Virus record (IMG/VR): IMGVR_UViG_3300030329_005612
Coordinates: 3,635-67,634 of that record
DNA from: a virus
Length of the DNA stretch: 64,000 bases
Strand: one strand, 5' to 3'
Under the pieces are notes generated by a model that searched no databases, was not told the origin of the DNA, and saw only the letters and a program-made list of their open reading frames with translations. A program made the translations under genes and the position numbers. Positions within the stretch are counted from its first letter, which is position 1. Each line of letters starts with the position of its first letter. Shown here one piece after another: positions 1-43,972 of the stretch.

Positions 1-32
1 TTATTCACAATCAAACTTTTTTTTTCATAGGT

Positions 33-48
33 TGGCACGGAACCTGCT
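33..48 (+). promoter_or_regulatory. sigma54 (-24/-12)-like site
   Basis: TGGCACG-GAAC-CTGCT matches TGGCACG-N4-TTGCW with correct GG/GC spacing; no convincing plus-strand gene downstream. Confidence 0.4.
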
Positions 49-102
49 AGGAAAAAACGAAGGTATAACCTAGTTAAGTTACTGAACAGCAACGACTTAG
101 CA

Positions 103-147
103 GGGTCGCGGGGGGGGACCCCCCGAAATAGTACGTGTACGTACTAT
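103..147. repeat. Bipartite palindromic element copy 1 (G/C hairpin, then ATAGTACGTGTACGTACTAT)
   Basis: gggtcgc-G8-A-C6-gaa-atagtacgt-gt-acgtactat; recurs 7 times in 1-7.4 kb. Confidence 0.95.
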
Positions 148-289
148 ATTCTGGGTGTCAAGAAAAAGTTATTCCCAGCCCTACTCGTCACGCTGTCTTG
201 GCGAGGCCTTTGGCACTACGAGCCGCAAGCGTAAGGTTTCGGGCTGGGAAAGCTACCACTCTGGGTATTCATTGGCATCATGCCAAGCG

Positions 290-484
290 TCATCTGCTGT
301 CGAACCCGTAGCCGTCATGTTCAGCGTAAAAACCACAGCAACCGCAACAGGGTGCATCTTCACACATACCCTTGGACTCGGTGGGAGTGGTAGGCTCAGG
401 CTCGTTCGCCCAAGTCGCTGGCCCCATGTCGGCGGTGAAACTCTCCTCGCAGGAGACCTGAATCATGTCATTCATTTCATTCAT
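290..484 (-). CDS. Small acidic protein with CEDAPCCGCCG motif
   Basis: 64-aa ORF; upstream TTGGCT-17-TATAGT, 9 nt before ATG; Cys cluster suggests metal binding. Confidence 0.7.
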   Translation of the reverse strand: MNEMNDMIQVSCEESFTADMGPATWANEPEPTTPTESKGMCEDAPCCGCCGFYAEHDGYGFDSR

Positions 485-533
485 TGTGGTAAGACTATAA
501 CAAAAATAGAGTCAAAAGCCAAGAAAAAGTTAT

Positions 534-785
534 TCACAGGTTACTCCCTGCAAGAAAATTCTCCTCGCGCCAATCATCCTCCCAGCACTGCAAATGTACC
601 TCATTAACACGCTCGCGAAAGCGCGTTTCATCAAAGCGTGGGTGCGAACCCTTCAAACGGATACAGGTGTCGGTCAGGACTTCTTCGCGAGATTCACGGT
701 CGCTAATCTCGCCCAAGGTACAGGCGAGAAATTCAAAGTGACGGCGGGTGAAGTTGAGGCTTGCGATTTCTTGTTTGCTTAACAT
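534..785 (-). CDS. Hypothetical early protein (start reassigned to MLSKQEIA)
   Basis: TTGACC-17-TACATT lies 6 nt upstream of the ATG at 785, inside the longer called ORF. Confidence 0.75.
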   Translation of the reverse strand: MLSKQEIASLNFTRRHFEFLACTLGEISDRESREEVLTDTCIRLKGSHPRFDETRFRERVNEVHLQCWEDDWREENFLAGSNL

Positions 786-887
786 GGGATAAATGTAACA
801 CACAACCGGCTGCGGGTCAAGGGATTTTCTTAAAAAAGTTATTCCCAAAAAAGATGCAATTGTGAATAAAAAAAGCTTGACAACTGA

Positions 888-930
888 GGTCGCGGGGGGG
901 GACCCCCTGAAATAGTACGTGTACGTACTA
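888..930. repeat. Bipartite palindromic element copy 2 (hairpin, then palindrome)
   Basis: ggtcgc-G8-A-C5-tgaa-atagtacgtgtacgtacta. Confidence 0.95.
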
Positions 931-1032
931 ATTACGCGGTCGGCGTTTGGATGTTTTTTTAGCCTTCTCGCGAGCCTTATCGCGGTCCTTGTCGCGGATG
1001 CGGAGGATGTTCAACCATTTTTCTCTTTTCAT
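928..1032 (-). CDS. 34-aa highly basic peptide MKREKWLNILRIRDKDRDKAREKAKKTSKRRPRN
   Basis: Hand-translated; TTGACA-17-TACATT 7 nt upstream of ATG; TAG stop supplied by the repeat palindrome. Confidence 0.6.
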   Translation of the reverse strand: MKREKWLNILRIRDKDRDKAREKAKKTSKRRPRN

Positions 1033-1090
1033 TAGTAATAATGTAACACAGGTTGTGCTATTTGTCAAGGGGTTTTTTAAAAAAAGTTAT

Positions 1091-1381
1091 TCACATTAAA
1101 CGCACGATACCACTCGTTTGGTGCGTCGGTGGACGCATGGCACACTTGACACCCACAATATCAAATTCCTTGCGAGGAAGCCAGCCACACCATTGGTCGT
1201 GGTTATCTGAACAAGATGAACAAAACTTGCCATGCTGAGAACAGTGAAGCAACCAACTAAACCCATTGCTCCCGACAGCGGAGACCCGTTCAGACCAATC
1301 AAATTCTGGCCCGTGTTCAGCAATCCGGTTGCGGGTGCGGCGCGAAGAGAACGTGTTCGGTTTGATTTCGATCATCAACAT
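1091..1381 (-). CDS. Hypothetical Cys/His-rich early protein (start reassigned to MLMIEIK)
   Basis: TTGACA-17-TACATT 6 nt upstream of ATG at 1381; CxxH...CxxC. Confidence 0.7.
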   Translation of the reverse strand: MLMIEIKPNTFSSRRTRNRIAEHGPEFDWSERVSAVGSNGFSWLLHCSQHGKFCSSCSDNHDQWCGWLPRKEFDIVGVKCAMRPPTHQTSGIVRLM

Positions 1382-1433
1382 GCTATAAATGTAACACGCA
1401 TCCACCTAATTGTCAACACTAAAGTTATTCACA

Positions 1434-1476
1434 ATGATACGTGTACGTACTATCTTGGGGGGAGGGCCCCCCGAGA
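1434..1476. repeat. Bipartite palindromic element copy 3 (palindrome, then hairpin)
   Basis: atgatacgtgtacgtactat-ctt-G6-aggg-C6-gaga. Confidence 0.9.
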
Positions 1477-1557
1477 TTGAGACTCAGTCTCATTCTAAAT
1501 GTCGGGCGGACATTATTTATTTGTTATTTATTTACTTCTTATTTATTTATTTGTTAT

Positions 1558-1983
1558 TTATTTCTTTAGCCTGTAAAACTTATGGTTATTAATTATCTTT
1601 ATAACTTTGCTGGAGCGTGTCCAATAATTATTAGTCTTTAAAGAACAATAATGGTCGGCGTGATTAATATATTTTAGATCTAATTGTTTTAAGTTCTTCG
1701 CAAGTAAAATTGCATAGGGTGCAGACGATGATTTTAACAAGTAAGACAAATCTCTTTTGGAGTTCCAGCAAGAAAATTGTTTTCTTTGTTTACAAACTCT
1801 TGCGGCAGACATGGAGCGATTCAATACCCGTTGTTGAATAACGCAAGCTACGGCATACATCCCCGCTTTACCTTCGCCACGCGCTTCACCCAAAATAGTT
1901 AACGCAACAATTTTTTGTTCGTGCGTTAAACCGTAACCCTTAAAGGTTAACAGCATTAATATAAGCATAATTATTTTTTTCAT
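1558..1983 (-). CDS. SleB-like cell wall hydrolase (Hydrolase_2 family)
   Basis: N-terminal signal peptide; ALTILGEARGE, AVACVIQQR, QFSCWN and terminal HKFY motifs. Confidence 0.85.
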   Translation of the reverse strand: MKKIIMLILMLLTFKGYGLTHEQKIVALTILGEARGEGKAGMYAVACVIQQRVLNRSMSAARVCKQRKQFSCWNSKRDLSYLLKSSSAPYAILLAKNLKQLDLKYINHADHYCSLKTNNYWTRSSKVIKIINNHKFYRLKK

Positions 1984-1985
1984 AA

Positions 1986-2189
1986 TTAAAATGTTCTATG
2001 TTTTAAATCTGCGGGGGTTGTGGTCGGTGGTCGCCAACCCTCATCACATTTACAATACTTCGGGCAATCATCCTCTTTACTGCCCTCTTTGCTTACCGTT
2101 TCATTGCACGTTGGGCAAAGGTGAAGCAAACGGAACTGCGGATACTCAAGGCAAAACGCTTTTGTTAGTGGGCCGAATTTAGTTTTCAT
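1986..2189 (-). CDS. Small zinc-finger-like protein
   Basis: CPTC...CPKYCKC; co-oriented with neighbours. Confidence 0.5.
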   Translation of the reverse strand: MKTKFGPLTKAFCLEYPQFRLLHLCPTCNETVSKEGSKEDDCPKYCKCDEGWRPPTTTPADLKHRTF

Positions 2190-2245
2190 TTATTCTTGGG
2201 AGTAAATATACATTGCAATAATAAAGGCGGCAATCATTATGACAA

Positions 2246-2995
2246 TCAATTTGCCACCTCCTGTCTTTTGCTGTATCCGTTCCATCCTCGGCGTTTCAAT
2301 TCTTGAACCGCTTGGCTTGCCATGCTCCCCTTGGGTTGCGTCCCGTGAATGAGCAGAGCAAAATTCTTTTTTCCAAATGCTGCGTGGTAGTCGTCGTGGT
2401 CAATTTCCAATCCCATCAAATCCGCTGTTTGTTCGTCATAAACAACCACCGCGTTTTTCAATCCGTGCTCCATTATCAGTGAATCATACTTGCCACCCTC
2501 GGAGGCGGTCAATTCAAAATTAGAAGGAATTTCAAACAAACGCTTCACCCAAAAGTTCAAACTTTTTGTGTAAGCATAAAAGTGTTTGTCAGGCATACGC
2601 CGCGCAACTCCCAACCATGCGTCAAAATACTTTTGAGAGAAAAAGTCACCGCCCACATGGACGCGCATGATGTCAAAGTTTTTTGGCAACTGCGATTGCA
2701 ATAGGTCGGCCAATTCTAAATCATCGCCCTTGCACGAACGGATTGCTTCAAAGTTCCTCCACACCATTGCGCGTGTGTTTTTATACTGTGATTCGCTACT
2801 AGCAGCAAAACAACGGAACACAGTGTCAGGCCCATCTTGAATTTTACCCGTGTCCCTGTCCGCTTTAGATAAACAATCCTTTGCTGCTGGACAAGTCCAA
2901 CCGCTTGGAAGGGTAAACGCTTTGATACGTTTTGAAAGACGTTTCGCCATCGCAACCAATTTTGCGTTAGCCTGAGAGAATGTGAGATTCACCAT
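2246..2995 (-). CDS. Gp88-like phage protein (Cys-rich, radical-SAM-like fold)
   Basis: LPSGWTCP..C, CFA, RVHVGGDF and FYAYTKS motifs; promoter TTGACT-17-TACTAT 6 nt before ATG. Confidence 0.75.
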   Translation of the reverse strand: MVNLTFSQANAKLVAMAKRLSKRIKAFTLPSGWTCPAAKDCLSKADRDTGKIQDGPDTVFRCFAASSESQYKNTRAMVWRNFEAIRSCKGDDLELADLLQSQLPKNFDIMRVHVGGDFFSQKYFDAWLGVARRMPDKHFYAYTKSLNFWVKRLFEIPSNFELTASEGGKYDSLIMEHGLKNAVVVYDEQTADLMGLEIDHDDYHAAFGKKNFALLIHGTQPKGSMASQAVQELKRRGWNGYSKRQEVAN

Positions 2996-3033
2996 CAGAA
3001 TATAGTAGTTTAGTTTTAAAAAAAAGTCAAGCC

Positions 3034-3441
3034 TTATGCGTCCGTGTCGGTGAGGTTTTCCGCTTTTCCGTGGTTGCTATCATATCCAAAAAATCGAACC
3101 CGTGAAGTTTTTGCCTTGTAACCCGTCGTGCCTTCAAGACTGTCGTAATCTTCTTGCGCGTACTTCCGCGCCACGGGCAACGCTCCACCCTCACGGCCTT
3201 TGAAATGCTCGGCGTCTTTATTCAGCAGTCGCGCCAAATGCGCCTCGGCAACTCCTTTCAAATACTTTTCGGGTGTTGTAAAGAAACTAACAATCTCGGA
3301 TGTTATCCAATTGGCAGAATCCAGTGATGACGCAATGCTATAGTGCCAAAACCAATAAAATTTTTCTTCTGCTTCTTCTGGAGAGTCAGCGTCAATATAA
3401 ATAATAATCTTTTCCCCCCAAGGTTGTTTTTTAATTGTCAT
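3034..3441 (-). CDS. Hypothetical protein (start MTIKKQPW)
   Basis: ATG at 3441 overlaps the end of the upstream ArfA-like ORF, suggesting translational coupling. Confidence 0.65.
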   Translation of the reverse strand: MTIKKQPWGEKIIIYIDADSPEEAEEKFYWFWHYSIASSLDSANWITSEIVSFFTTPEKYLKGVAEAHLARLLNKDAEHFKGREGGALPVARKYAQEDYDSLEGTTGYKAKTSRVRFFGYDSNHGKAENLTDTDA

Positions 3442-3574
3442 AACTTCTCCGATTGCGTTTGCTGCGAATAAAAGAACCCTTACCCCGTTTCGGTCGGTGA
3501 ACACGAGTCCCCATACCCATGCGCCCTTCGTGGTTAACTCGTGTCCTTATCCGTCTGGCTCGCTTGTCTTTCAC
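3431..3574 (-). CDS. ArfA-like (alternative ribosome rescue factor) peptide, 47 aa
   Basis: Hand-translated MKDKRARRIRTRVNHEGRMGMGTRVHRPKRGKGSFIRSKRNRRSYDN; the RVxxxKRGKGSFxR segment matches the ArfA core; GTG start 7 nt after a TATTCT -10-like box. Confidence 0.65.
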   Translation of the reverse strand: MKDKRARRIRTRVNHEGRMGMGTRVHRPKRGKGSFIRSKRNRRSYDN

Positions 3575-3672
3575 TTCCAAAAGAATACCATACACAAAAA
3601 TAAATACAAGACTTTTTTTGAGTTAAGTTGTTCACAGTGAAATGTTAATAAAAAAAGCTTGACAAGTCGAAC

Positions 3673-3713
3673 CTCGGGGGGCGGGCCCCCCGAAATAGTA
3701 CGTGTACGTACTA
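3673..3713. repeat. Bipartite palindromic element copy 4 (hairpin, then palindrome)
   Basis: ctc-G6-cggg-C6-gaa-atagtacgtgtacgtacta. Confidence 0.95.
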
Positions 3714-3715
3714 CT

Positions 3716-4489
3716 TCAATTGTAAGTAACTTTTTCTTTTTCGATGTGATCAGAACCACTCAAGCCCGTGCGCCACCCAAAAGTAAACATCGGAGTGAGG
3801 GGTGCGCGTCCATCTACTGGATCGCCACCTTTATATAAATAGTCAAATATTTCAATGCGTGGAATTCTATTTCTGTTGGGATGCTTCTTCCGATAGTATG
3901 AAAGAATCTCACGAGCATTATCTTTAGGACTGCCAGATTGAAAATTAAAACCTTTTTGATACCGACACCTTCTTAAATTTACAGCGTGAGTTTGATAAAT
4001 TAAAGCATCATCAAAATTATTAAGAAAAAAGGTTAAATCTTTCATGGGCGTGAGTTCCTTATCTGGGTAGTCTATCGGATAACAGCAATAGTCAGCCCAC
4101 AAAATTAATCTTTGGTTTCTAACCTTGCAACCATTGTTAATGTCGTCAGCGTCTAAGTTACTCCATTGATAAATGATTTCCACATTCGATTCTTTACCAT
4201 AAACAAAATAATCCTCAGTCCTTGTAATATCAAAAGGTAAGTTTGCTTTGTTGTCACCTGTCGTATTAGCTTTGTAAGTTCCCCAATTACTTTCAAAACA
4301 ATGCAAAGTAAATTTTATACGGGGAAACAAACGTGTAAGGATTGCGATGAGCATAGTTTCAAACTTCCAGTTTGAAGCTGGAAGCGTAACAATGTAAGAA
4401 TCAACAGGGTTGTTTTTAAGCTCGCTGATAATCTGTTCCAAGATAGAACTTCTGATACTGTGCTTTGTTGCATTGTTTTCAAGTCTCAT
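3716..4489 (-). CDS. Hypothetical protein, possibly a degenerate SAM-dependent methyltransferase fold
   Basis: 257-aa ORF; TLHCFE and LILWADYC strand motifs; promoter TTGCAA-17-TTTAAT 8 nt before ATG at 4489. Confidence 0.55.
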   Translation of the reverse strand: MRLENNATKHSIRSSILEQIISELKNNPVDSYIVTLPASNWKFETMLIAILTRLFPRIKFTLHCFESNWGTYKANTTGDNKANLPFDITRTEDYFVYGKESNVEIIYQWSNLDADDINNGCKVRNQRLILWADYCCYPIDYPDKELTPMKDLTFFLNNFDDALIYQTHAVNLRRCRYQKGFNFQSGSPKDNAREILSYYRKKHPNRNRIPRIEIFDYLYKGGDPVDGRAPLTPMFTFGWRTGLSGSDHIEKEKVTYN

Positions 4490-4538
4490 AACGCGCAATT
4501 AAACCATAAATCTCATAATCTTGCAAGCCTAAAGTTAA

Positions 4539-4581
4539 ATAATACGCACACGTACTATCGCGGGGGGCGGGCCCCCCGAAA
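4539..4581. repeat. Bipartite palindromic element copy 5 (palindrome, then hairpin)
   Basis: ataatacgcacacgtactat-cgc-G6-cggg-C6-gaaa. Confidence 0.9.
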
Positions 4582-4615
4582 CGGTTTTGTCAAGAACTTT
4601 TTTTGATAAAAGGCA

Positions 4616-4644
4616 ATAAAAAAACCCTCCCCGCAGGGAGGGTT
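4616..4644 (-). terminator. Rho-independent terminator
   Basis: aaccctccc-cgca-gggagggtt hairpin with U-tract on the minus strand, downstream of 4691..5578. Confidence 0.75.
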
Positions 4645-4690
4645 GGGTCGGCCTACTGGGCCTAGTGGCAGGTCAGTATTTTAGCGCAAC

Positions 4691-5578
4691 CTATTCAGTC
4701 ACGACCACTTGGGAATTCTCAGGCACCGCCGTTAAGGTTTTCATCCGCTTCGGGTTAAGCGAAGCCGCTTGAAAGTTCTTCAACACGTTGCCGCTGATAC
4801 GGTTGGCGTACTCAAAGCGCGACCCCTCCACCTCATCGGTCAAATGTTGCGTGACCGCATTGTAAAGGTTGTAAAGGTTGCCATCGGTATCGTTTGACCG
4901 CAGCAGTTGGTCACGGTTGGCCCAAATAGACGCCACACGCTCGCGCACCTTGTCGCTGATGATTTTCTTTGCCGTAAGGTTGGCAAGAACATTCAAGCCA
5001 GTGTCGGTAGGCACAGCCTGTCCAGCGAGAGTGTGAAAAACATCGGTAGACCTACTTAACGACGCCAGCGACTTGTCGAGTGCCTCATCGGTGATGAGAG
5101 AGTCAAGACTGAGCTTGCGTGAGTGCTTGGACACCATGTCCACATCCTTCTCCATTGTTTGCATTCCGTTGGTGCAGATTAACCGCATCAGCCCCAAGGC
5201 AAACGAAATCCGCAGGGTACGGTCAAAAGAGTTCTGCACCGTCAAGCGGTAAGACATAACGTCGCCCACTTGTGGGCCAGCAACTTGAAAGTTCTCGCCT
5301 TCGAGGTCGTAAACGGCGCGGAGCTTTCTGCCGCCATCGGTAACATAAACATTGCGATTGTAGCCAATGCCGCGACGGTCTAGTGCTTCGTCAGCCTTGT
5401 CCAGCAAATCGGCATTGTTTACTACGGCGTAACGCTCCGAGGTAGCCCCAAGAATCTCGCCATTGTCCTCGCGGATATTCATAAAATAGCCTGACTTGCT
5501 TCCCGTGATGGGGTGAGGTACAGCAACTTGGCTGACGGTGAAATCGAATTCAGATGATTGTTTTGCTTCAATTGGCAT
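4691..5578 (-). CDS. DUF932/DUF945-family phage/plasmid protein
   Basis: LGATSERYAVVNN, QNSFDRT, RLICTNGM, KHS and NLYNLYNAVT motifs. Confidence 0.85.
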   Translation of the reverse strand: MPIEAKQSSEFDFTVSQVAVPHPITGSKSGYFMNIREDNGEILGATSERYAVVNNADLLDKADEALDRRGIGYNRNVYVTDGGRKLRAVYDLEGENFQVAGPQVGDVMSYRLTVQNSFDRTLRISFALGLMRLICTNGMQTMEKDVDMVSKHSRKLSLDSLITDEALDKSLASLSRSTDVFHTLAGQAVPTDTGLNVLANLTAKKIISDKVRERVASIWANRDQLLRSNDTDGNLYNLYNAVTQHLTDEVEGSRFEYANRISGNVLKNFQAASLNPKRMKTLTAVPENSQVVVTE

Positions 5579-5816
5579 AAGCCTGTTTTTCCTTTTTGGT
5601 TAAGTGTTAACTAACTTCAATAAGTATGCCTGAGATTGAGATTCATTGCAATACTTTTTTCATCATCACAGGCATTTTTTTTCAATCACTTTCTATTCTT
5701 TTTGATTGGCAAGCCCCTTTGTGAATCATTCGTGAGCGACAAGCTTTTTTGTCAATCAATTATGCCTTTTGATGAGCGACAAAATTGTGAATAACTTTTT
5801 GCTTGACAAATCGAGC

Positions 5817-5858
5817 CTCGGGGGGCGGGCCCCCCCAAATAGTACGTACACGTACTAT
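5817..5858. repeat. Bipartite palindromic element copy 6 (hairpin, then palindrome)
   Basis: ctc-G6-cggg-C7-aa-atagtacgtacacgtactat. Confidence 0.95.
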
Positions 5859-6001
5859 CTAAACCAGTAATGTTTATTATTATTATTTGTTTATTATTTG
5901 AATCAAATTGAATTATAAATAGAAAAATCCCCGCCTCCCCCAAAGAGAAAAAAGGAGACGGGGATGGTTGGGCTGCTACTTAAGGTAAATTACGGTAAAC
6001 C

Positions 6002-6271
6002 TTACGTACCAACCGGGGTGGGATAAAGAGCCTGTTTAACCCCATCAATCCGCTCTTGCATCCGCTTTTGAGACTTTACGCGGTGGCTCTCCCCAAAATA
6101 GTTAGTAACTTCTTCGGGGGTCGCTTTACGCAGGGCTGAACGCTTAACCGGCCCAAAGTCACTATAACCGTGAGAAACAGTAAACACTCTGTTCTCGTTA
6201 AGTTTACCCACCACACGCTCAACACGCTCTTTGCTGGTGTTCATGTATAATGCTCCGTTTTGTATTTTCAT
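6002..6271 (-). CDS. Hypothetical early protein
   Basis: 89-aa ORF; TTGACA-17-TAATCT promoter 9 nt before ATG. Confidence 0.7.
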   Translation of the reverse strand: MKIQNGALYMNTSKERVERVVGKLNENRVFTVSHGYSDFGPVKRSALRKATPEEVTNYFGESHRVKSQKRMQERIDGVKQALYPTPVGT

Positions 6272-6318
6272 ATTATATATAGATTAACACACATTAAAAT
6301 TTATGTCAACTAAAAAAA

Positions 6319-6479
6319 TGGTAGTGGTGCGGGGATTCGAACCCCACCCGACCAGTATCGTATCACTTCCACGCCTTTTTAGAATACACTTCTCGTTTGG
6401 AGCGTCCTCCCAGCATGGCTGCTTTCCTGCGTCAGACTGTGCTGCTGATCTTATTCAATCGCACACCAATTTCACCACC
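6319..6479 (-). ncRNA. 161-nt tRNA/tmRNA-like RNA
   Basis: 5' GGTGGTG pairs with 3' CACCACT-A-CCA; canonical T-arm TGGGG-TTCGAAT-CCCCG; much larger interior than a tRNA and no anticodon arm. Confidence 0.7.
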
Positions 6480-6480
6480 G

Positions 6481-6879
6481 TTAAAGTATCGCCCTTACTT
6501 CGCGAGCACTTTTACCGCAGCCGAATATAACAACGTCAGCTTTATGTACTGGCTCGCCAGTTTCCTCATTTATAAAAGAATCATTTTTATAAGGGTTGTA
6601 TGTAAGAGGGATAGAACGGTCATAAAATACCGCCATGTTACAGGCGTGAAGTTCTCGCCCTTGAATGTAGGCATGTACGTTTTTACGCTTCTCATCTCTT
6701 ACGCGCTCCTTACCTTTCTCGCTTACGCGCAACGAGCAGTCCTCCAACATTAAATGACAGGTGTGCCCCTTAATCAAACCATCGTCTCCACGGACGCTGT
6801 ACACGGGCCACGGTTTGCCGCGCGTGTCGCTTCCGAGCTTCTTGTTAAGATTACGATATACTTGGACGTAGCCTTTCAT
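6481..6879 (-). CDS. Conserved phage hypothetical protein
   Basis: VYRNL, KRKNVHAY and YNPYK motifs typical of a widespread uncharacterised phage family. Confidence 0.75.
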   Translation of the reverse strand: MKGYVQVYRNLNKKLGSDTRGKPWPVYSVRGDDGLIKGHTCHLMLEDCSLRVSEKGKERVRDEKRKNVHAYIQGRELHACNMAVFYDRSIPLTYNPYKNDSFINEETGEPVHKADVVIFGCGKSAREVRAIL

Positions 6880-7061
6880 GTTGTCTCCTTTTTGTTTTTA
6901 GCTGCGATTGCAAACAACTCCTTTTCGGATACGGGTCGCAAATCCCCGGCATGCGAACGGTACCGAGGATTTTCATGCCCTTGTGCTTTGTTTGTTTTTG
7001 GCCACCAAGGTGCCTTGGAGAGCCGCCCAGCGACGAACGGATTGCGCTTTGTCTTTTTCAT
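6876..7061 (-). CDS. Hypothetical basic protein
   Basis: 61-aa ORF coupled to neighbours. Confidence 0.55.
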   Translation of the reverse strand: MKKTKRNPFVAGRLSKAPWWPKTNKAQGHENPRYRSHAGDLRPVSEKELFAIAAKNKKETT

Positions 7062-7063
7062 AA

Positions 7064-7264
7064 TTATCTTTCTATTTCAAGTCTGCCAACACTATTGCCA
7101 TTGATGTCCCGACAACCTATCATGTGGCCCACTCTATCGCAAGACACACCATATTCTTGTTCTTCAATGTTATCCGCAAGAACTTTTAAAATCCGTGCTA
7201 GTTCTACACTTGGATACTGCACGAACGCATCGTTATCCATTTGTATCTTTATAATGGCTTTCAT
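7064..7264 (-). CDS. Small conserved phage protein
   Basis: MDNDAF...ELARIL...RDINGNSVG pattern; TTGACT-17-TAATAT 7 nt before ATG. Confidence 0.75.
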   Translation of the reverse strand: MKAIIKIQMDNDAFVQYPSVELARILKVLADNIEEQEYGVSCDRVGHMIGCRDINGNSVGRLEIER

Positions 7265-7348
7265 GGTTATGATATTAATACGAATTAAAAATTAAGTCAA
7301 CAAAAAAATATCATCCGCCTACGTACTATCAGCGGCCAAAGAACTTTA

Positions 7349-7390
7349 GATAGTACGTGTACGTACTATCGCGGGGGGTGGGCCCCCCTG
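7349..7390. repeat. Bipartite palindromic element copy 7 (palindrome, then hairpin); extra half-site at 7320-7330
   Basis: gatagtacgtgtacgtactatc-gc-G6-tggg-C6-tg. Confidence 0.95.
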
Positions 7391-7689
7391 AGAATGAGTC
7401 TCAATATCATTAAAAAAAAAGAACTTCATTATTTATAGTTCTTTATTTGGAAGTGTTTCTTTATTTCGGGAAAGTAAAATAATTGGCGAAAAATATATTA
7501 ACGACAAGCCTCGCGTACCACCTAAATTTATAATACGGAATAAGCTTCCTAACAATGTGAGGTAAAACTTATCTAGTATAATTTACACAGATTTTAGTAT
7601 AATAGAATAAAAAAAAGGCCACCGAGGGGGAAGACAAATAAAAACCCCCCGATGACCTTCGTTAGACGAACTGTGAAAAGAACCAAAAC

Positions 7690-8649
7690 TCAGTCCGCCA
7701 AACCTTGCAAATAACTCTGACCCTGCTTGGTGAGTGCTCGACCAGCAGTTGTAATCTCCATTAGATTCATTTTCTGTAGGTGCATCTCAAAGTCCCTCTG
7801 TAGGCAAGCCTTGGTAAGACCTGTCTTGGCCGAAAGGTAAGTGAGCGAGCAGTCCTTACGCTCCGAGAGGTAACGCAGCACTTGAAGCTCAATACGATTA
7901 AGTCCGAGAGGAAGTATGCCCAACTGTTTCTTCAGACCGTTCCAATCTTTGCTCGTAAAATTCTCACGACGCTTCGCCCGAAGAAAGAGTTTGATGTTGT
8001 TAGCCATCTTTTGTGCGGCACGGGCATTACCACGCAGGATAGTTGCCATGTCGTCCAGCACAGTTTCCTCAAAGGTCACACCTTGACACACCCGACTGAT
8101 AATCTCTCCGAGTTGATTGTAAGAGTATTCTTCAAGGTCAATGCGTTCTGTCCTGTCCATGAGGGCGTGGAAAATCTGCTGCGCCTCGGTGGTAGCGAAC
8201 ATAAAACTTTGCCTGTTAAAATCAAAATCAACAGTATATTCGTCGTATGAAAATGTGTTCCGATTGTCACTGTTAGGATTAAGAATCGTCAACAATGCCA
8301 TCGTCACATCCTTGGGAAGCTCAGATGCCTCATCGAAAAGAACAGTGCATTCTTGTTCGTGAATATGAGGGATAACTACTTGGTTAAAAAATTGCTTTAC
8401 GTTTTTAATGGTAGAGCAGTTCAGTTCCAAGAACTTCTTTGGTTTGCCAACGCGCGAATCGTCATAGCGAGCGGTCAGGTGCTGCCCAGTTGCCTTGGCG
8501 AGCATGGTCTTGCCGCACCCCTTCGGTGCAACAAACATAATGTGAGGGATAATGTTAGTAGCTTTATATCCATCAAGATAAAATTTTAATTTGTTTTTGG
8601 CGGCGTCTTGGCCGACGATAGAAGTGAAGATGTCTTTTTTGTCTTTCAT
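7690..8649 (-). CDS. ruvB: RuvB-like AAA+ ATPase (Holliday junction branch migration motor homologue)
   Basis: IVGQ, Walker A APKGCGKT, Walker B LFDE, FATT, RGNAR, and C-terminal winged helix LGL...T.AGR; 319 aa. Confidence 0.85.
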   Translation of the reverse strand: MKDKKDIFTSIVGQDAAKNKLKFYLDGYKATNIIPHIMFVAPKGCGKTMLAKATGQHLTARYDDSRVGKPKKFLELNCSTIKNVKQFFNQVVIPHIHEQECTVLFDEASELPKDVTMALLTILNPNSDNRNTFSYDEYTVDFDFNRQSFMFATTEAQQIFHALMDRTERIDLEEYSYNQLGEIISRVCQGVTFEETVLDDMATILRGNARAAQKMANNIKLFLRAKRRENFTSKDWNGLKKQLGILPLGLNRIELQVLRYLSERKDCSLTYLSAKTGLTKACLQRDFEMHLQKMNLMEITTAGRALTKQGQSYLQGLAD

Positions 8650-8686
8650 TAAATATAATGGTATCAGATTTTAAAATAAATGTCAA

Positions 8687-8929
8687 CTACCAATCCTGCT
8701 CTACTTCTTCCAAGTCATTAACATTCATATCCACCGCCTCAGTATAGGTGACAATATGTTTGTTGTTGTTTTCGGCTAGGATGGGGCTACCATCCAAGTG
8801 AAGTTGTTCCGCATACTTACGCGACACCATCACGGTTGCGTCCTCCTTCAATATACGGTTTAATTCTCGCAATGATACTCCAAGAAAAGAGCATCCTGCC
8901 GCACCAGCTTTTCGTCCTCGTTTTGCCAT
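8687..8929 (-). CDS. Small protein with KRGRK AT-hook-like N-terminus
   Basis: 80-aa ORF with promoter TTGCAT-17-TAAACT 8 nt before ATG. Confidence 0.65.
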   Translation of the reverse strand: MAKRGRKAGAAGCSFLGVSLRELNRILKEDATVMVSRKYAEQLHLDGSPILAENNNKHIVTYTEAVDMNVNDLEEVEQDW

Positions 8930-9312
8930 CTGTTTATAGTTTAAAATAAATTAAAAAATAATGCAAGCCTTTTCTTAAAAAAGTATCCTCATTATCATGT
9001 GATGTTTCTTACTTTCTTTCGGGCTATCATTTTTACATTCTTCATCGCCCTTTTTGCAGAATTTTCCTGCCTTGTCTCGGTTTATATTTACAGATTTGTG
9101 ATTCACTTTTTGCTTCATGTGTAGATATTAAAATAAATTAAAATAGAAGTCAATAAAAAAAACCCTCACACCAATTACTGATGTAAGGGAACATTATGAA
9201 AAGATAAGAAGTGTTAAAGAAGGTCAAAATCATCAAAAACCCGTGAGCGGTTCTCCCGCCCCTCTATTCTTCTTATGTCCGTATTATATTGCAGAATAGA
9301 TTATTTGTCAAA

Positions 9313-9573
9313 TTAAAATGGCTCATTATTTATTTCTTTTAGTTCAGCAATTCCAGTGGGGATTTCTCTGTAATTATCTTTCGGCTTCCACTCCTTATTT
9401 TCGGCTAGTTGGCGAGTATTGGCGGCGAGTTCGTCCGCTGCTCTACCATGAGGCTCCTCGATAATATATATTTGCCGCCATTCATCTAGCGTCCAGAAGC
9501 ATTCATGCCATGCAGCCTCATATCTACGCGCCCATTTGAGTTGCTTTTCTGTAATTTTTTTCTTTCTTGGCAT
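9313..9573 (-). CDS. Hypothetical protein
   Basis: 86-aa ORF with TTGACA promoter immediately upstream. Confidence 0.65.
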   Translation of the reverse strand: MPRKKKITEKQLKWARRYEAAWHECFWTLDEWRQIYIIEEPHGRAADELAANTRQLAENKEWKPKDNYREIPTGIAELKEINNEPF

Positions 9574-10391
9574 TGTATTATTATATCTATAATTGATGTG
9601 ATGTCAAGTATTATATTTAAATTCATTAAAATATATTAAAATTCATTTAAAATTGCCGCGCCTAAATTTTGTTAAAAAACTTCTTTTAGCCCAAAAAAAC
9701 GTCTTTTTACCTCTAAAACCAGCTTATTTCGCCAAAAATCATTAAAAATTTTAGTCTATATTTTCGACTTTTTGGTTAGTAATCTAGTGTCTTAACATAG
9801 AGTACAACACACAATAAAATTATTAATGCTACTATTATCATATCCTATCCATCAAAGTCATTATCATCAAACCAACCGCTTTTGACAAGCCAAAAAGCTG
9901 CCCCGACCATGATGGCCGTTGTTATTATGATTTTAATTAAGTCACTCATTGTATTTGACTTTTCTCTATTAGTAATTACACTATTTATTTGATTTAATTT
10001 CATTTGTTTTATGGTATATAGTATCGAATAATATCAGAATAGATTTAGTAATTTAAAATGAGTTTAAATATAAATTTTAAATACTACCCACCACTCCAAC
10101 ACATATTAAAAAACAACACCTTTATTTGCTATATTCCCTATATGTATTATCCCTATTAGAAAAGAAGAAGAAACATAAAAAAAGCCCCAAAAATGGGGCA
10201 ATTTTAAACTAAATTAAAATTAATAGTCACCAGAATCTACCCTGCGGTACTCATAAATAAACACCACAATCATAAAAATTAAAAACGCAACAGTCATATA
10301 TAATAAGACTTTCTCTGTAGATATGTTTAAGGACTGTTTTGTTCATATATTACCCCACTTTGCTACATAATAAGACACTTTCCCCCACTTG

Positions 10392-43574: not shown

Positions 43575-43972
43575 TAACTTTTCTCGGAACATTAGGAGAC
43601 ACTAGTACCCCCCCAAAGGGGGGATACTGTATTTAGTGTGTGTATATAACTTTTCTTCGGCCCCTTTAAATTATTTAATGCGGAGGGGATTTGAAACTCC
43701 GCGACACAAAATACTGGCGATTAACTAAAATCGCGATAGCCTACCACTAAATGGCGGGAGGGACTGTGCTCAAAAACTCCGCTTACGACTATCTACCACA
43801 ACACGCTGGGCATTGCCATAGTAATTAACTATGCGTCCTTGTTCTCGTGTATTTGAAACGAGAGGCTACCCTTTGATCTGGAAGTAAGCCAACTTCCCCC
43901 CTACTGCATTCGGTTTGTCTCAGGAAACTCCACTGATTACTCTCAGCGAGCTTAAAAGGAATTCCGCCTTTT
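43575..43972 (-). ncRNA. ~400-nt structured non-coding RNA candidate
   Basis: ORF-free, GC-enriched, about ten hairpins, own promoter TTGACA-17-TATCAT at 43977-44005. Confidence 0.55.

What the first reader, a model, noticed from the sequence alone, without database searches (positions are those of the whole stretch)
103..7403. Seven-copy bipartite palindromic element that brackets gene cassettes, with permuted rather than simply inverted module order
Seen: each copy has module A (G6-loop-C6 hairpin) and module B (ATAGTACGT-NN-ACGTACTAT). The order is A-B at 103, 888, 3673 and 5817, and B-A at 1434, 4539 and 7349. Pairs 2/3, 4/5 and 6/7 therefore enclose blocks of one to several genes with B facing inward. 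The asymmetric A loop stays G-rich on the plus strand in both orders (cggg, aggg, tggg; a true inversion would read cccg). The B centre (GT vs AC) varies independently of order. No copy lies inside a credible gene, and none occurs after 7.4 kb. Inference: a strand-aware cis-element system. It could be recombination sites for shuffling early-gene cassettes (conceptually like T4-type promoter-stem-loop cassettes or integron attC hairpins), or cruciform/ssDNA signals read during genome injection, replication or packaging. I recognise no described family with this architecture.
Basis: partly seen in the sequence, partly recalled or inferred. Interest (0 to 1): 0.9.

Follow-up and report, generated by a model that had tools for sequence, protein, structure and literature searches.

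The report
Palindromic joints between phage gene cassettes
A marine phage marks the boundaries of its early-gene blocks with a two-part DNA signal (a G/C hairpin plus a strictly conserved 18-base palindrome), and related phages keep these signals at the same junctions while gaining or losing the genes between them, so they look like built-in joints for swapping gene cassettes.

Summary
The window holds exactly seven copies, and the 67.6-kb virus contig holds nine. All lie in the early small-gene region, between genes, far above chance.

The "permuted" order has a simple origin. Relatives carry a tripartite A-B-A element at the same junctions. In this phage, promoter-bearing gene blocks sit inside two of those elements with B duplicated, giving A-B[genes]B-A.

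- A ~97%-identical strain lacks the single-gene block and reads A-B-A.
- Another strain joins the left flank of one B to the right flank of another.
- In 250 flank comparisons among relatives, none was inverted.

The A hairpins are not canonical terminators, because they lack a T-run. No recombinase gene was found in four partial genomes.

Best reading: a PeSL-like junction element (known from T4-type phages). It is a regulatory stem-loop plus a probable protein-binding palindrome that also supplies portable homology for cassette exchange in fixed orientation. What binds B is unknown.

It is a new variant of a known kind. The scan has noted comparable junction palindromes before in other phages (SPbeta-like), with different sequences.

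The parts
110..146 (.). Copy 3 of the contig (first in the window), order A-B. A is G8AC6 at 110-124 and B at 129-146. On the minus strand it lies 9 bases downstream of a -35-like TTGACA (156-161) and a TGTGGGAATAAC-type box (168-177).
894..930 (.). Copy 4, order A-B. A is G8AC5 at 894-907 and B at 913-930. It is preceded on the + strand by A-run + GCTTGACA (875-882). The last 3 bases of B are the stop codon of a 46-aa minus-strand ORF.
1435..1492 (.). Copy 5, order B-A. B (2 mismatches) is at 1435-1452, A (G6AGGGC6) at 1457-1472, and a third hairpin TGAGACTCAGTCTCA at 1478-1492. A DnaA-box-like TGTGAATAAC (1424-1433, minus) abuts B, followed by the promoter TTGACA-17-TACATT (1416-1388, minus).
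3676..3713 (.). Copy 6, order A-B. A is G6CGGGC6 at 3676-3691 and B at 3696-3713. GCTTGACA lies at 3657-3664 (+). It is the left boundary of the single-gene block.
3714..4539 (-). Inserted block 1: a 257-aa gene of no known family (3716-4489) with its own promoter (TTGCAA-17-TTTAAT). It is absent from a ~97% identical strain and from the relatives L026 and L027.
   Evidence: (X8 record 26)
4540..4577 (.). Copy 7, order B-A. B (2 mismatches, centre AC) is at 4540-4557 and A (G6CGGGC6) at 4562-4577. A -35-like TTGACA lies on the minus strand at 4588-4593, and a canonical T-run terminator of the DUF932 gene at 4623-4644.
5820..5857 (.). Copy 8, order A-B. A is G6CGGGC7 at 5820-5836 and B (centre AC) at 5840-5857. 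It is preceded on the + strand by TGTGAATAAC (5786-5795) and GCTTGACA (5801-5808).
5858..7350 (-). Inserted block 2: four genes (7064-7264, 6876-7061, 6481-6879 L5-gp82-like, 6002-6271), a tRNA-like stretch, a promoter at the right end and a T-run terminator at the left end. In L026 and L027 the RuvB-like gene is followed directly by one element and then DUF932.
7351..7403 (.). Copy 9, order B-A. B is at 7351-7368 (within the 22-base palindrome GATAGTACGTGTACGTACTATC), A (G6TGGGC6) at 7373-7388, and a third hairpin at 7389-7403.
931..1434 (-). Block between copies 4 and 5, with B facing inward: two small genes (928-1068 and 1091-1381), each with a TTGACA-17-TACATT promoter. Strains in runs X8 and X16 lack 539-1476.
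   Evidence: table 5c
7690..8649 (-). Neighbouring gene, not shown to be part of the system: a RuvB-like AAA+ protein. It is conserved at the upstream edge of the element region in all relatives examined.

Best explanation
The copies are mosaic junction elements of a hyperplastic early-gene region in an uncultured marine phage whose relative's contig is about 175 kb. The full unit, seen intact in relatives, is a -35-like TTGACAA, GC stem-loop A, palindrome B, GC stem-loop A and TTGTCAA. It sits between the end of one transcription unit and the DnaA-box-like site and sigma-70-type promoter of the next.

Gene blocks that bring their own promoter are inserted at B, and B is duplicated. One A-B-A unit therefore becomes A-B[genes]B-A. 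This produces the 'permuted' order and the inward-facing B copies. Because all exchanges use the modules as direct repeats, A keeps one polarity and no block is inverted.

Shown here:
- the elements lie at junctions;
- B is conserved far above its surroundings;
- empty and occupied sites exist in strains and in related phages;
- one hybrid B junction exists;
- no inversions were seen.

Inferred:
- The exchange is ordinary homologous recombination on short repeats, as proposed for PeSLs.
- A acts as a transcriptional attenuator or insulator.
- B is the binding site of a dimeric DNA-binding protein, phage or host, not identified.
For: 1. Strain-level empty site. Contig X8 record 26 (1,087 nt) covers window 2840-3681 (24 differences) and 4537-4754 (5 differences), with only 10 letters between. 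It lacks the 257-aa gene and reads hairpin-B-hairpin.

2. Synteny. In L026 the order is RuvB-like gene, [A-B-A], DUF932, [A-B-A], F4, GP88. In L027 it is RuvB-like gene, [B-A], DUF932, [B-A-B], F4. The own contig has four genes and one gene inserted at those two junctions, flanked by copies 9/8 and 7/6. The sequences outside the A modules are homologous (TTGTCAAGC, DnaA-like boxes, promoter, leader).

3. Hybrid junction. L099 is 98-100% identical to the own contig. It joins the 40-base left flank of B(copy 2) to the 40-base right flank of B(copy 1).

4. A further insertion. L055 carries about 1,265 extra bases with at least 4 small ORFs between two B-A-TTGTCAAG repeats. The 175.8-kb contig (L021) has one repeat at that place; the flanks are 95.7% and 89.9% identical.

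5. Flank-pair survey. Of 250 flank pairs at 88% identity or more, 220 keep their spacing, 15 have an extra segment and 0 lie on opposite strands. In at least 5 independent cases the extra segment holds 2 or more B copies.

6. B conservation. In 56 distinct copies from clade contigs, positions 4-7 and 12-15 never vary and the centre is always purine-pyrimidine. In 295 copies the centres are AC 110, GT 98, AT 73 and other 14.

7. Analogous elements in relatives. Relatives that share the RuvB-like gene at 57-68% identity carry other repeated palindromes at the same junctions (L029, L031, L036).

8. Match to PeSLs. PeSLs of RB49 and phi1 have a polyG-loop-polyC stem-loop placed variably around TTGACA-N17-TATAAT promoters. 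They coincide with indels between close phages (PMC2839356, PMC4122927).
Against: - No transcript data exist, so neither a terminator nor an operator role is shown.
- The A hairpins lack a T-run, while the phage has canonical T-run terminators nearby.
- In L027 the A module keeps only the G-rich half (G6NGGG) and cannot form the hairpin. The hairpin may therefore not be the selected feature.
- Six of nine copies sit 9-11 bases downstream of a -35-like hexamer with no usable -10. This is unexplained.
- The two B copies that flank each inserted block in this phage have opposite centres (GT and AC), and the pair at copies 6/7 match at only 14 of 18 positions. These blocks are not simple recent Campbell-type products.
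- Some indels have breakpoints at other repeats or at no repeat (538 to 1477; L153; L123 against L107).
- No B-binding protein was found.
- B arrays next to clustered DnaA-like boxes in L017 and L021 would also fit an origin-type function.
Confidence: 0.6

Rival explanations
1. B is the core site of a dedicated site-specific recombination system. One candidate is a serine-recombinase-type crossover at the central dinucleotide; another is a structure-specific enzyme acting on the extruded palindrome. The system would integrate and excise circular, promoter-bearing cassettes in a fixed orientation, as an integron-like system of a virulent phage.
For: B has 8-10-base perfect inverted arms around a 2-base centre. 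That centre is non-palindromic (GT or AC) in 208 of 295 copies. It has one polarity relative to the coding strand in 46 of 56 copies (AC), or 51 of 56 counting A at position 9. B is duplicated at the borders of inserted blocks. L099 has a crossover product exactly at B. There were 0 inversions in 250 flank pairs. The resemblance to serine-recombinase sites is recalled knowledge, not a tool result.
Against: No Resolvase (PF00239) or Phage_integrase (PF00589) match was found in the own contig or in three partial relatives, about 204 kb in all; all are fragments of 26-43% completeness. 73 of 295 centres are the palindromic AT, which would abolish directionality. The B pairs that flank both inserted blocks here have opposite centres. 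Indels also end in A, in DnaA-like boxes or in no repeat. Relatives use entirely different junction palindromes.
Confidence: 0.13
2. The elements are DNA-level replication or entry signals. B would be an iteron for a phage initiator working with host DnaA at the adjacent boxes, or a T5-like injection-stop and DnaA-tethering region. Their coincidence with cassette borders would be secondary.
For: DnaA-box-like TGTGAATAAC or TTATCCACA sites abut B in copies 2 and 5, in L011, in L023 and in an X6 contig. Tandem B arrays of 4-5 units lie beside three tandem boxes in L017 and at the end of L021. The T5 iss region combines 8 DnaA boxes with repeats and palindromes (preprint 10.1101/866236; abstract and outline read only).
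Against: Copies are spread over 11-14 kb at nearly every transcription-unit border, not clustered in one non-coding locus. The boxes sit at a fixed 6 bases upstream of -35 hexamers, which is a promoter-type arrangement. The genome ends are unknown. In the 175.8-kb contig the elements span both contig ends, consistent with an arbitrary break.
Confidence: 0.1
3. The copies are simply intrinsic (possibly bidirectional) transcription terminators, repeated because every operon needs one.
For: They lie at the 3' ends of transcription units. The PeSL stem-loop of RB49 reduced lacZ expression like a strong terminator (PMC2839356, passage read).
Against: None of the 7 terminator-like sites found by the scan is an A hairpin. 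No T-run follows A or B on either strand. Copies 7, 8 and 9 lie just after canonical T-run terminators. This reading also does not explain an invariant 12-base core conserved among phages whose proteins are about 60% identical.
Confidence: 0.05

Closest known systems
PeSL (promoter-early stem-loop) cassettes of T4-type phages (Arbiol et al. 2010, PMC2839356; Comeau et al. 2014, PMC4122927)
   Same: Both are repeated intergenic composites in a hyperplastic early region. Both have a polyG-loop-polyC stem-loop beside near-consensus TTGACA promoters with an A/T-rich upstream part, with the stem-loop in variable positions, including just after the -35. Both include degraded forms with a -35 and stem-loop but no -10. 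In both, indels between close relatives coincide with the elements, and blocks bring their own promoter.
   Different: Here there is an extra 18-22-base palindrome with an invariant 12-base core, conserved across phages with about 60% protein identity. DnaA-box-like sites are present. The tripartite A-B-A or B-A-B forms and the duplication of B at block borders are not described for PeSLs. The phage was not shown to be T4-type. Mini-circles and terminator activity were not tested.
Integron attC sites and gene cassettes
   Same: Palindromic sites at cassette borders, fixed cassette orientation and strand polarity of the site.
   Different: No integrase was found. The blocks carry promoters and often several genes. 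B is a perfect palindrome without extrahelical bases. Exchanges also end in other modules.
Serine-recombinase crossover sites (recalled: inverted arms around a 2-bp centre that sets polarity, as in the Bxb1 and phiC31 att sites)
   Same: The geometry of B matches: perfect arms and a 2-base, mostly non-palindromic centre.
   Different: No recombinase gene was found. A quarter of the centres are palindromic AT. Flanking pairs have opposite centres.
Junction palindromes of SPbeta-like and gut phages noted earlier by this scan (e1-5758339, e1-5728589 and others; AI notes, unchecked here)
   Same: Short palindromes at early-gene junctions, kept in place in relatives while the genes between them differ.
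   Different: Those have a 6-base centre unique to each junction (an 'address'). Here the centre is 2 bases and the copies are interchangeable, and a GC hairpin module accompanies the palindrome.
T5 first-step-transfer iss region (Davison preprint 10.1101/866236)
   Same: [quoted passage not shown]
   Different: The T5 region is one untranslated block in a terminal repeat. Here the elements are interspersed with genes, and the termini are unknown.

Membership tests
PeSL | Repeated composite motif in intergenic spaces of a hyperplastic region rich in small, variable early genes | tested here: met
   Nine copies lie in 11 kb of small minus-strand genes between a PhoH-like and a RuvB-like gene. 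Gene content differs among relatives.
PeSL | Stem-loop, often polyG followed by polyC | tested here: met
   G6-8 / loop / C5-7 in all nine copies; folds. In relative L027 the C-run is lost.
PeSL | Sigma-70-like early promoter (-35, 17 bases, -10) with an A/T-rich upstream region as part of the motif | tested here: inconclusive
   Copies 2, 5, 7 and 9 are followed by a full promoter. Copies 1, 3, 4, 6, 7 and 8 have a -35-like TTGACA 9-11 bases away but no -10 at 16-18 bases. Promoter activity was not measured.
PeSL | Indels and replacements between close relatives lie at the elements | tested here: met
   (X8 record 26).
PeSL | Stem-loop terminates or attenuates transcription; mini-circles form by recombination between neighbouring elements | not testable with these tools
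   No RNA holder was listed and only contigs were available. L099 shows the junction expected of a B-by-B exchange, but inside a chromosomal contig.
PeSL | Host phage is a T4-type myovirus | tested here: inconclusive
   An rIIA-like gene is present. There was no Gp23 match in four partial records, but the control genomes hold no Gp23 either. There is no cultured relative.
Integron attC / cassette | Integron integrase (tyrosine recombinase) next to the array | tested here: not met
   PF00589 gave 0 matches in the own contig and in G001-G003. All are fragments.
Integron attC / cassette | Promoterless single-ORF cassettes, each ending in an imperfect palindrome with extrahelical bases | tested here: not met
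   The blocks carry their own promoters and 1-4 genes. B is a perfect palindrome.
Intrinsic terminator | GC-rich hairpin followed directly by a T-run | tested here: not met
   Of the 7 terminator-like sites in 1-9000, none is at an A or B module.
Serine-recombinase crossover site | Non-palindromic 2-bp centre, shared by partner sites, and a serine recombinase gene | tested here: not met
   The centre is AT in 73 of 295 copies. Flanking pairs 6/7 and 8/9 have opposite centres. PF00239 gave 0 matches in 4 partial records.
T5-type iss region | Ordered DnaA boxes with palindromes in one untranslated block of the terminal repeat | tested here: inconclusive
   DnaA-box-like sites are present but interspersed with genes. 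The termini are unknown.

The most novel reading that the evidence does not exclude
B is the crossover site of a dedicated, still unidentified enzyme system in virulent marine phages. That system would capture circular, promoter-bearing gene cassettes into A-B-A docking sites in a fixed orientation. The conserved neighbouring RuvB-like motor might act on the extruded palindromes. This would be an integron-like gene-capture device outside integrons and outside temperate elements.
Probability: 0.13. Interest if true: 0.85.

Novelty: new variant of a known kind. Interest (0 to 1): 0.56.

Why it matters
Large virulent phages keep a fast-changing set of small early genes, many of them for host takeover or counter-defence. 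How these genes are exchanged without breaking regulation is known in mechanistic outline only for the PeSLs of T4-type coliphages and vibriophages.

Here a widespread, uncultured marine phage clade shows the same logic, with a sharper and easily searchable marker: an invariant 12-base core inside an 18-22-base palindrome. Loci from both collections plus the own contig gave 295 distinct copies.

Empty and occupied sites are visible at strain level. This gives a direct handle for finding cassette borders in metagenomes, listing the mobile early-gene pool of these phages, and fishing for the protein that reads the palindrome.

Tried and rejected
- **RNA evidence.** No RNA holder was listed for window 1-8000. 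One metatranscriptome of a source sample held next to none of the words. Expression, starts and ends could therefore not be examined.
- **mRNA hairpin for B.** On 56 copies the coding-strand reading gives 8 G-U and 44 mismatched pairs. The template-strand reading gives 27 G-U and 25 mismatches. There is no support for a hairpin selected in the mRNA.
- **A -35 hexamer working with a -10 inside A or B.** The spacings are 28-44 bases. No hexamer of TAnnnT type lies at 16-18 bases. Rejected as a conventional promoter.
- **Rfam.** The only hit in window 1-9000 is a weak tmRNA-like match at 6322-6370.
- **Relatives of the 257-aa cargo gene.** None in virus contigs. No PHROG or Pfam family.
- **Candidate B-binding proteins.** No Pfam hit in 10 small early proteins. 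No ParB_N match. HTH_3 matched only weakly, inside the sigma factor.
- **Cultured relatives.** Megablast of 8 kb, and tblastn with the rIIA-like and RuvB-like proteins, found none close.
- **Literature.** No paper in the library holds the 12-base core as typed. A search for 'PeSLs' listed 15 papers, none of which by title or abstract describes this palindrome. Supplementary files were not consulted and could hold PeSL alignments.
- **Gp23 search.** Inconclusive.
- **Weak joints.** Joints with a side under 30 letters (931 to 3693, 5897 to 10204, 881 to 8126) were not used as evidence of deletion. The X6 contigs only show that a B-hairpin-B form exists.
- **Contigs that do not fit a B-only model.** L153 has three small deletions, one starting 8 bases after B. 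L123 against L107 shows a 566-base insertion beside a single B.
- **Rows dropped.** In one search, only loci whose coding strand was known were used: 12 sources, with L010 left out as a copy of L006/L014. In one search, copies within 30 bases of a contig end and loci L029-L037 were left out. By eye, L005, L015, L022, L028, L008, L016, L025, L020 and L024 look unrelated (a single B with no hairpin), but they were not removed.

Full report
**What is there**

The window is bases 3635-67634 of a 67,634-base linear virus contig that CheckV rates at 43% complete. The 18-base palindrome B (TAGTACGT-NN-ACGTACTA, up to 3 mismatches) occurs 7 times in the window, against 0.07 expected. Its 12-base core occurs at the same 7 places and nowhere else. 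A G6-N4-C6 hairpin (A) lies 3-5 bases from each B.

Two more copies lie upstream of the window, at contig 1536 (A-B) and 2373 (B-A), giving nine in the first 11 kb. The extra B-A copy carries exactly the hairpin and left flank of its A-B neighbours (CGGC-G8AC6). A is therefore moved, not flipped. As single strands, A and B fold into separate hairpins; most stretches fold better than shuffles, with the copy at 4535-4585 the weakest at z -1.26.

**Setting**

- Nearly all long ORFs from 1 to 45.8 kb are on the minus strand.
- The region consists of small genes, each with a TTGACA-17-TACATT or TATAGT type promoter that ends a few bases before the start codon.
- A TGTGAATAAC box often lies 6 bases upstream of the -35. 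Relatives show perfect TTATCCACA next to B.
- The phage has rIIA-like, sigma-factor and ribonucleotide-reductase genes.
- It has no close cultured relative.
- It occurs in marine metagenomes of several studies.
- The gene at the upstream edge of the region (7690-8649) is a RuvB homologue over its full length.

**Not terminators**

The terminator scan finds 7 sites in 1-9000, and none is an A hairpin. No T-run follows A or B. Canonical T-run terminators stand just before copies 7, 8 and 9.

**Relatives**

In clade contigs the copies again cluster in one 3-14 kb region.

The modules combine in several ways:
- A-B-A (L006, L014, L026);
- B-A-B (L012, L018, L027);
- single A-B or B-A;
- tandem B arrays (L017, L019, L013, L021).

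In 56 distinct copies, positions 4-7 and 12-15 never vary. The centre is always purine-pyrimidine, and on the coding strand it reads AC in 46 copies. In 295 copies the centres are AC 110, GT 98, AT 73 and other 14. With the centre turned to GT, the neighbouring GC-rich module is G-skewed in 112 of 165 cases. A G-U wobble test gives no support for an mRNA hairpin.

Phages that share the RuvB-like gene at 57-68% identity lack B. They carry other repeated palindromes at the same junctions:
- L036 has eight copies of TTGACAA-N8-G7CAGC8-N8-TTGTCAA.
- L029 has six copies of a palindrome with TTGGCAC arms.
- L031 has six copies of a 93-base composite.

**Why the order is permuted**

The coding-direction gene order in three phages is as follows:

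| Phage | Order |
|---|---|
| L026 | RuvB-like, [A-B-A], DUF932, [A-B-A], F4, GP88 |
| L027 | RuvB-like, [B-A], DUF932, [B-A-B], F4 |
| Own contig | RuvB-like, [copy 9], four genes, [copy 8], DUF932, [copy 7], 257-aa gene, [copy 6], F4, GP88 |

The DNA outside the A modules is homologous among the three phages. Each of the two 'B-inward' blocks is therefore an insertion into one tripartite element, with B present on both sides.

The same holds at strain level. A 1,087-base contig of run X8 covers 2840-3681 and 4537-4754 at about 97% identity, with 10 letters between. It lacks the 257-aa gene and reads hairpin-B-hairpin.

Further cases:
- L099 (98-100% identical to the own contig) joins the left flank of B(copy 2) to the right flank of B(copy 1). 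This is the product expected of an exchange between two B copies.
- L055 has 1,265 extra bases between two B-A repeats where the 175.8-kb contig has one.
- Of 250 flank pairs at 88% identity or more, 220 keep their spacing, 15 show an extra segment and none is inverted.

**Limits**

- Not every indel ends in B. Strains in runs X8 and X16 join a DnaA-like box (538) to the third hairpin (1477).
- L153 and L107 show changes beside a B or away from one.
- The B pairs around both inserted blocks have opposite centres.
- In L027 the A module cannot form a hairpin.
- The orphan -35 hexamers 9-11 bases from six copies remain unexplained.
- No tyrosine or serine recombinase, ParB or clear HTH protein was found, but all four records searched are fragments.

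**Comparison with known systems**

The closest described system is the PeSL of T4-type phages. It is a polyG-loop-polyC stem-loop placed variably around strong sigma-70 promoters in hyperplastic regions. It coincides with indels between close phages and forms mini-circles (PMC2839356 and PMC4122927: abstracts and passages read).

This element shares that logic and the GC stem-loop. It adds a strictly conserved palindrome, DnaA-box-like sites and tripartite forms. Membership of the T4 group and the PeSL activities could not be tested.

Integron, terminator and serine-recombinase-site memberships each fail at least one defining feature. For the T5 iss region, only the abstract and outline of the preprint were read; the resemblance is partial. 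Earlier notes of this scan describe junction palindromes with unique 6-base centres in SPbeta-like phages. I did not check them. They show that the general theme recurs but with other sequences.

**Verdict**

The cassette-junction reading is supported by comparative evidence. The exchange mechanism (homologous or enzyme-directed) and the molecular roles of A and B remain inferred.

Noticed in passing
window 7690-8649 (-): A full-length RuvB-like AAA+ protein (PDB 3pfi_A, E 4e-11 over residues 8-312; Pfam RuvB_C and RuvB_N). It is conserved directly upstream of the element region in L026, L027, L029-L036 and L007. A Holliday-junction motor next to cruciform-prone palindromes may or may not be a coincidence.
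   Followed up: partly
window 33-48 (+); contig 1441-1456 (+): Matches to the recalled sigma-54 consensus (TGGCACGGAACCTGCT and TGGCACGGTACTTGCT), each about 60 bases left of an A-B copy and pointing into it. Relatives L012 and L029 have convergent TTGGCAC...GTGCCAA arms around their junction palindromes. The motif may therefore be a dimer-binding site rather than a promoter.
   Followed up: partly
window 168-177, 529-538, 838-847, 1086-1095, 1424-1433, 3627-3636 (-); 861-870, 5786-5795 (+): A TGTGAATAAC box (DnaA-box-like) fixed about 6 bases upstream of -35 hexamers. Ten of the 13 minus-strand hits in the contig lie in its first 7.3 kb. Inverted pairs of the box abut B in copy 2, L011 and L023.
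   Followed up: partly
contig 1133-3280 (upstream of the window; loci L001-L003): Five or six copies of a hairpin GGGACA-N5-TGTCC followed by TATAGCA-type -10 boxes. This is a second promoter-like repeat family in front of small genes.
   Followed up: no
window 6322-6370 (-): A tRNA/tmRNA-like 3' part (Rfam RF00023, 15.3 bits, below the gathering score of 47). ARAGORN does not call it. It is absent from strain contig L153.
   Followed up: partly
window 178-289 and contig 2440-2560: Two similar non-coding stretches (CTCRTCACGCTGTCTTG ... GCAAGCGTARG.TTTC.GGCTGG) closed by a CCCAGCC/GGCTGGG helix, each beside an element. They may be a small structured RNA.
   Followed up: no
window 1478-1492, 7389-7403; contig 2411-2431: A third hairpin, TGAGACTCAGTCTCA, accompanies three of the four B-A copies. 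In strains of runs X8 and X16 it is joined directly to a DnaA-like box, without A or B.
   Followed up: partly
window ~43,610-43,640 (-): A hairpin, AGTATCCCCCCTTTGGGGGGGTACT, combines G/C runs with AGTA/TACT arms inside a non-coding unit. It is not a B copy, because the core pattern is absent.
   Followed up: yes
L017 2580-4700: In a more distant relative, each early intergenic region reads: T-run terminator, TTCGACCCTGAA repeats, B unit or array, GACCCT repeats, up to three tandem DnaA-like boxes, promoter.
   Followed up: no
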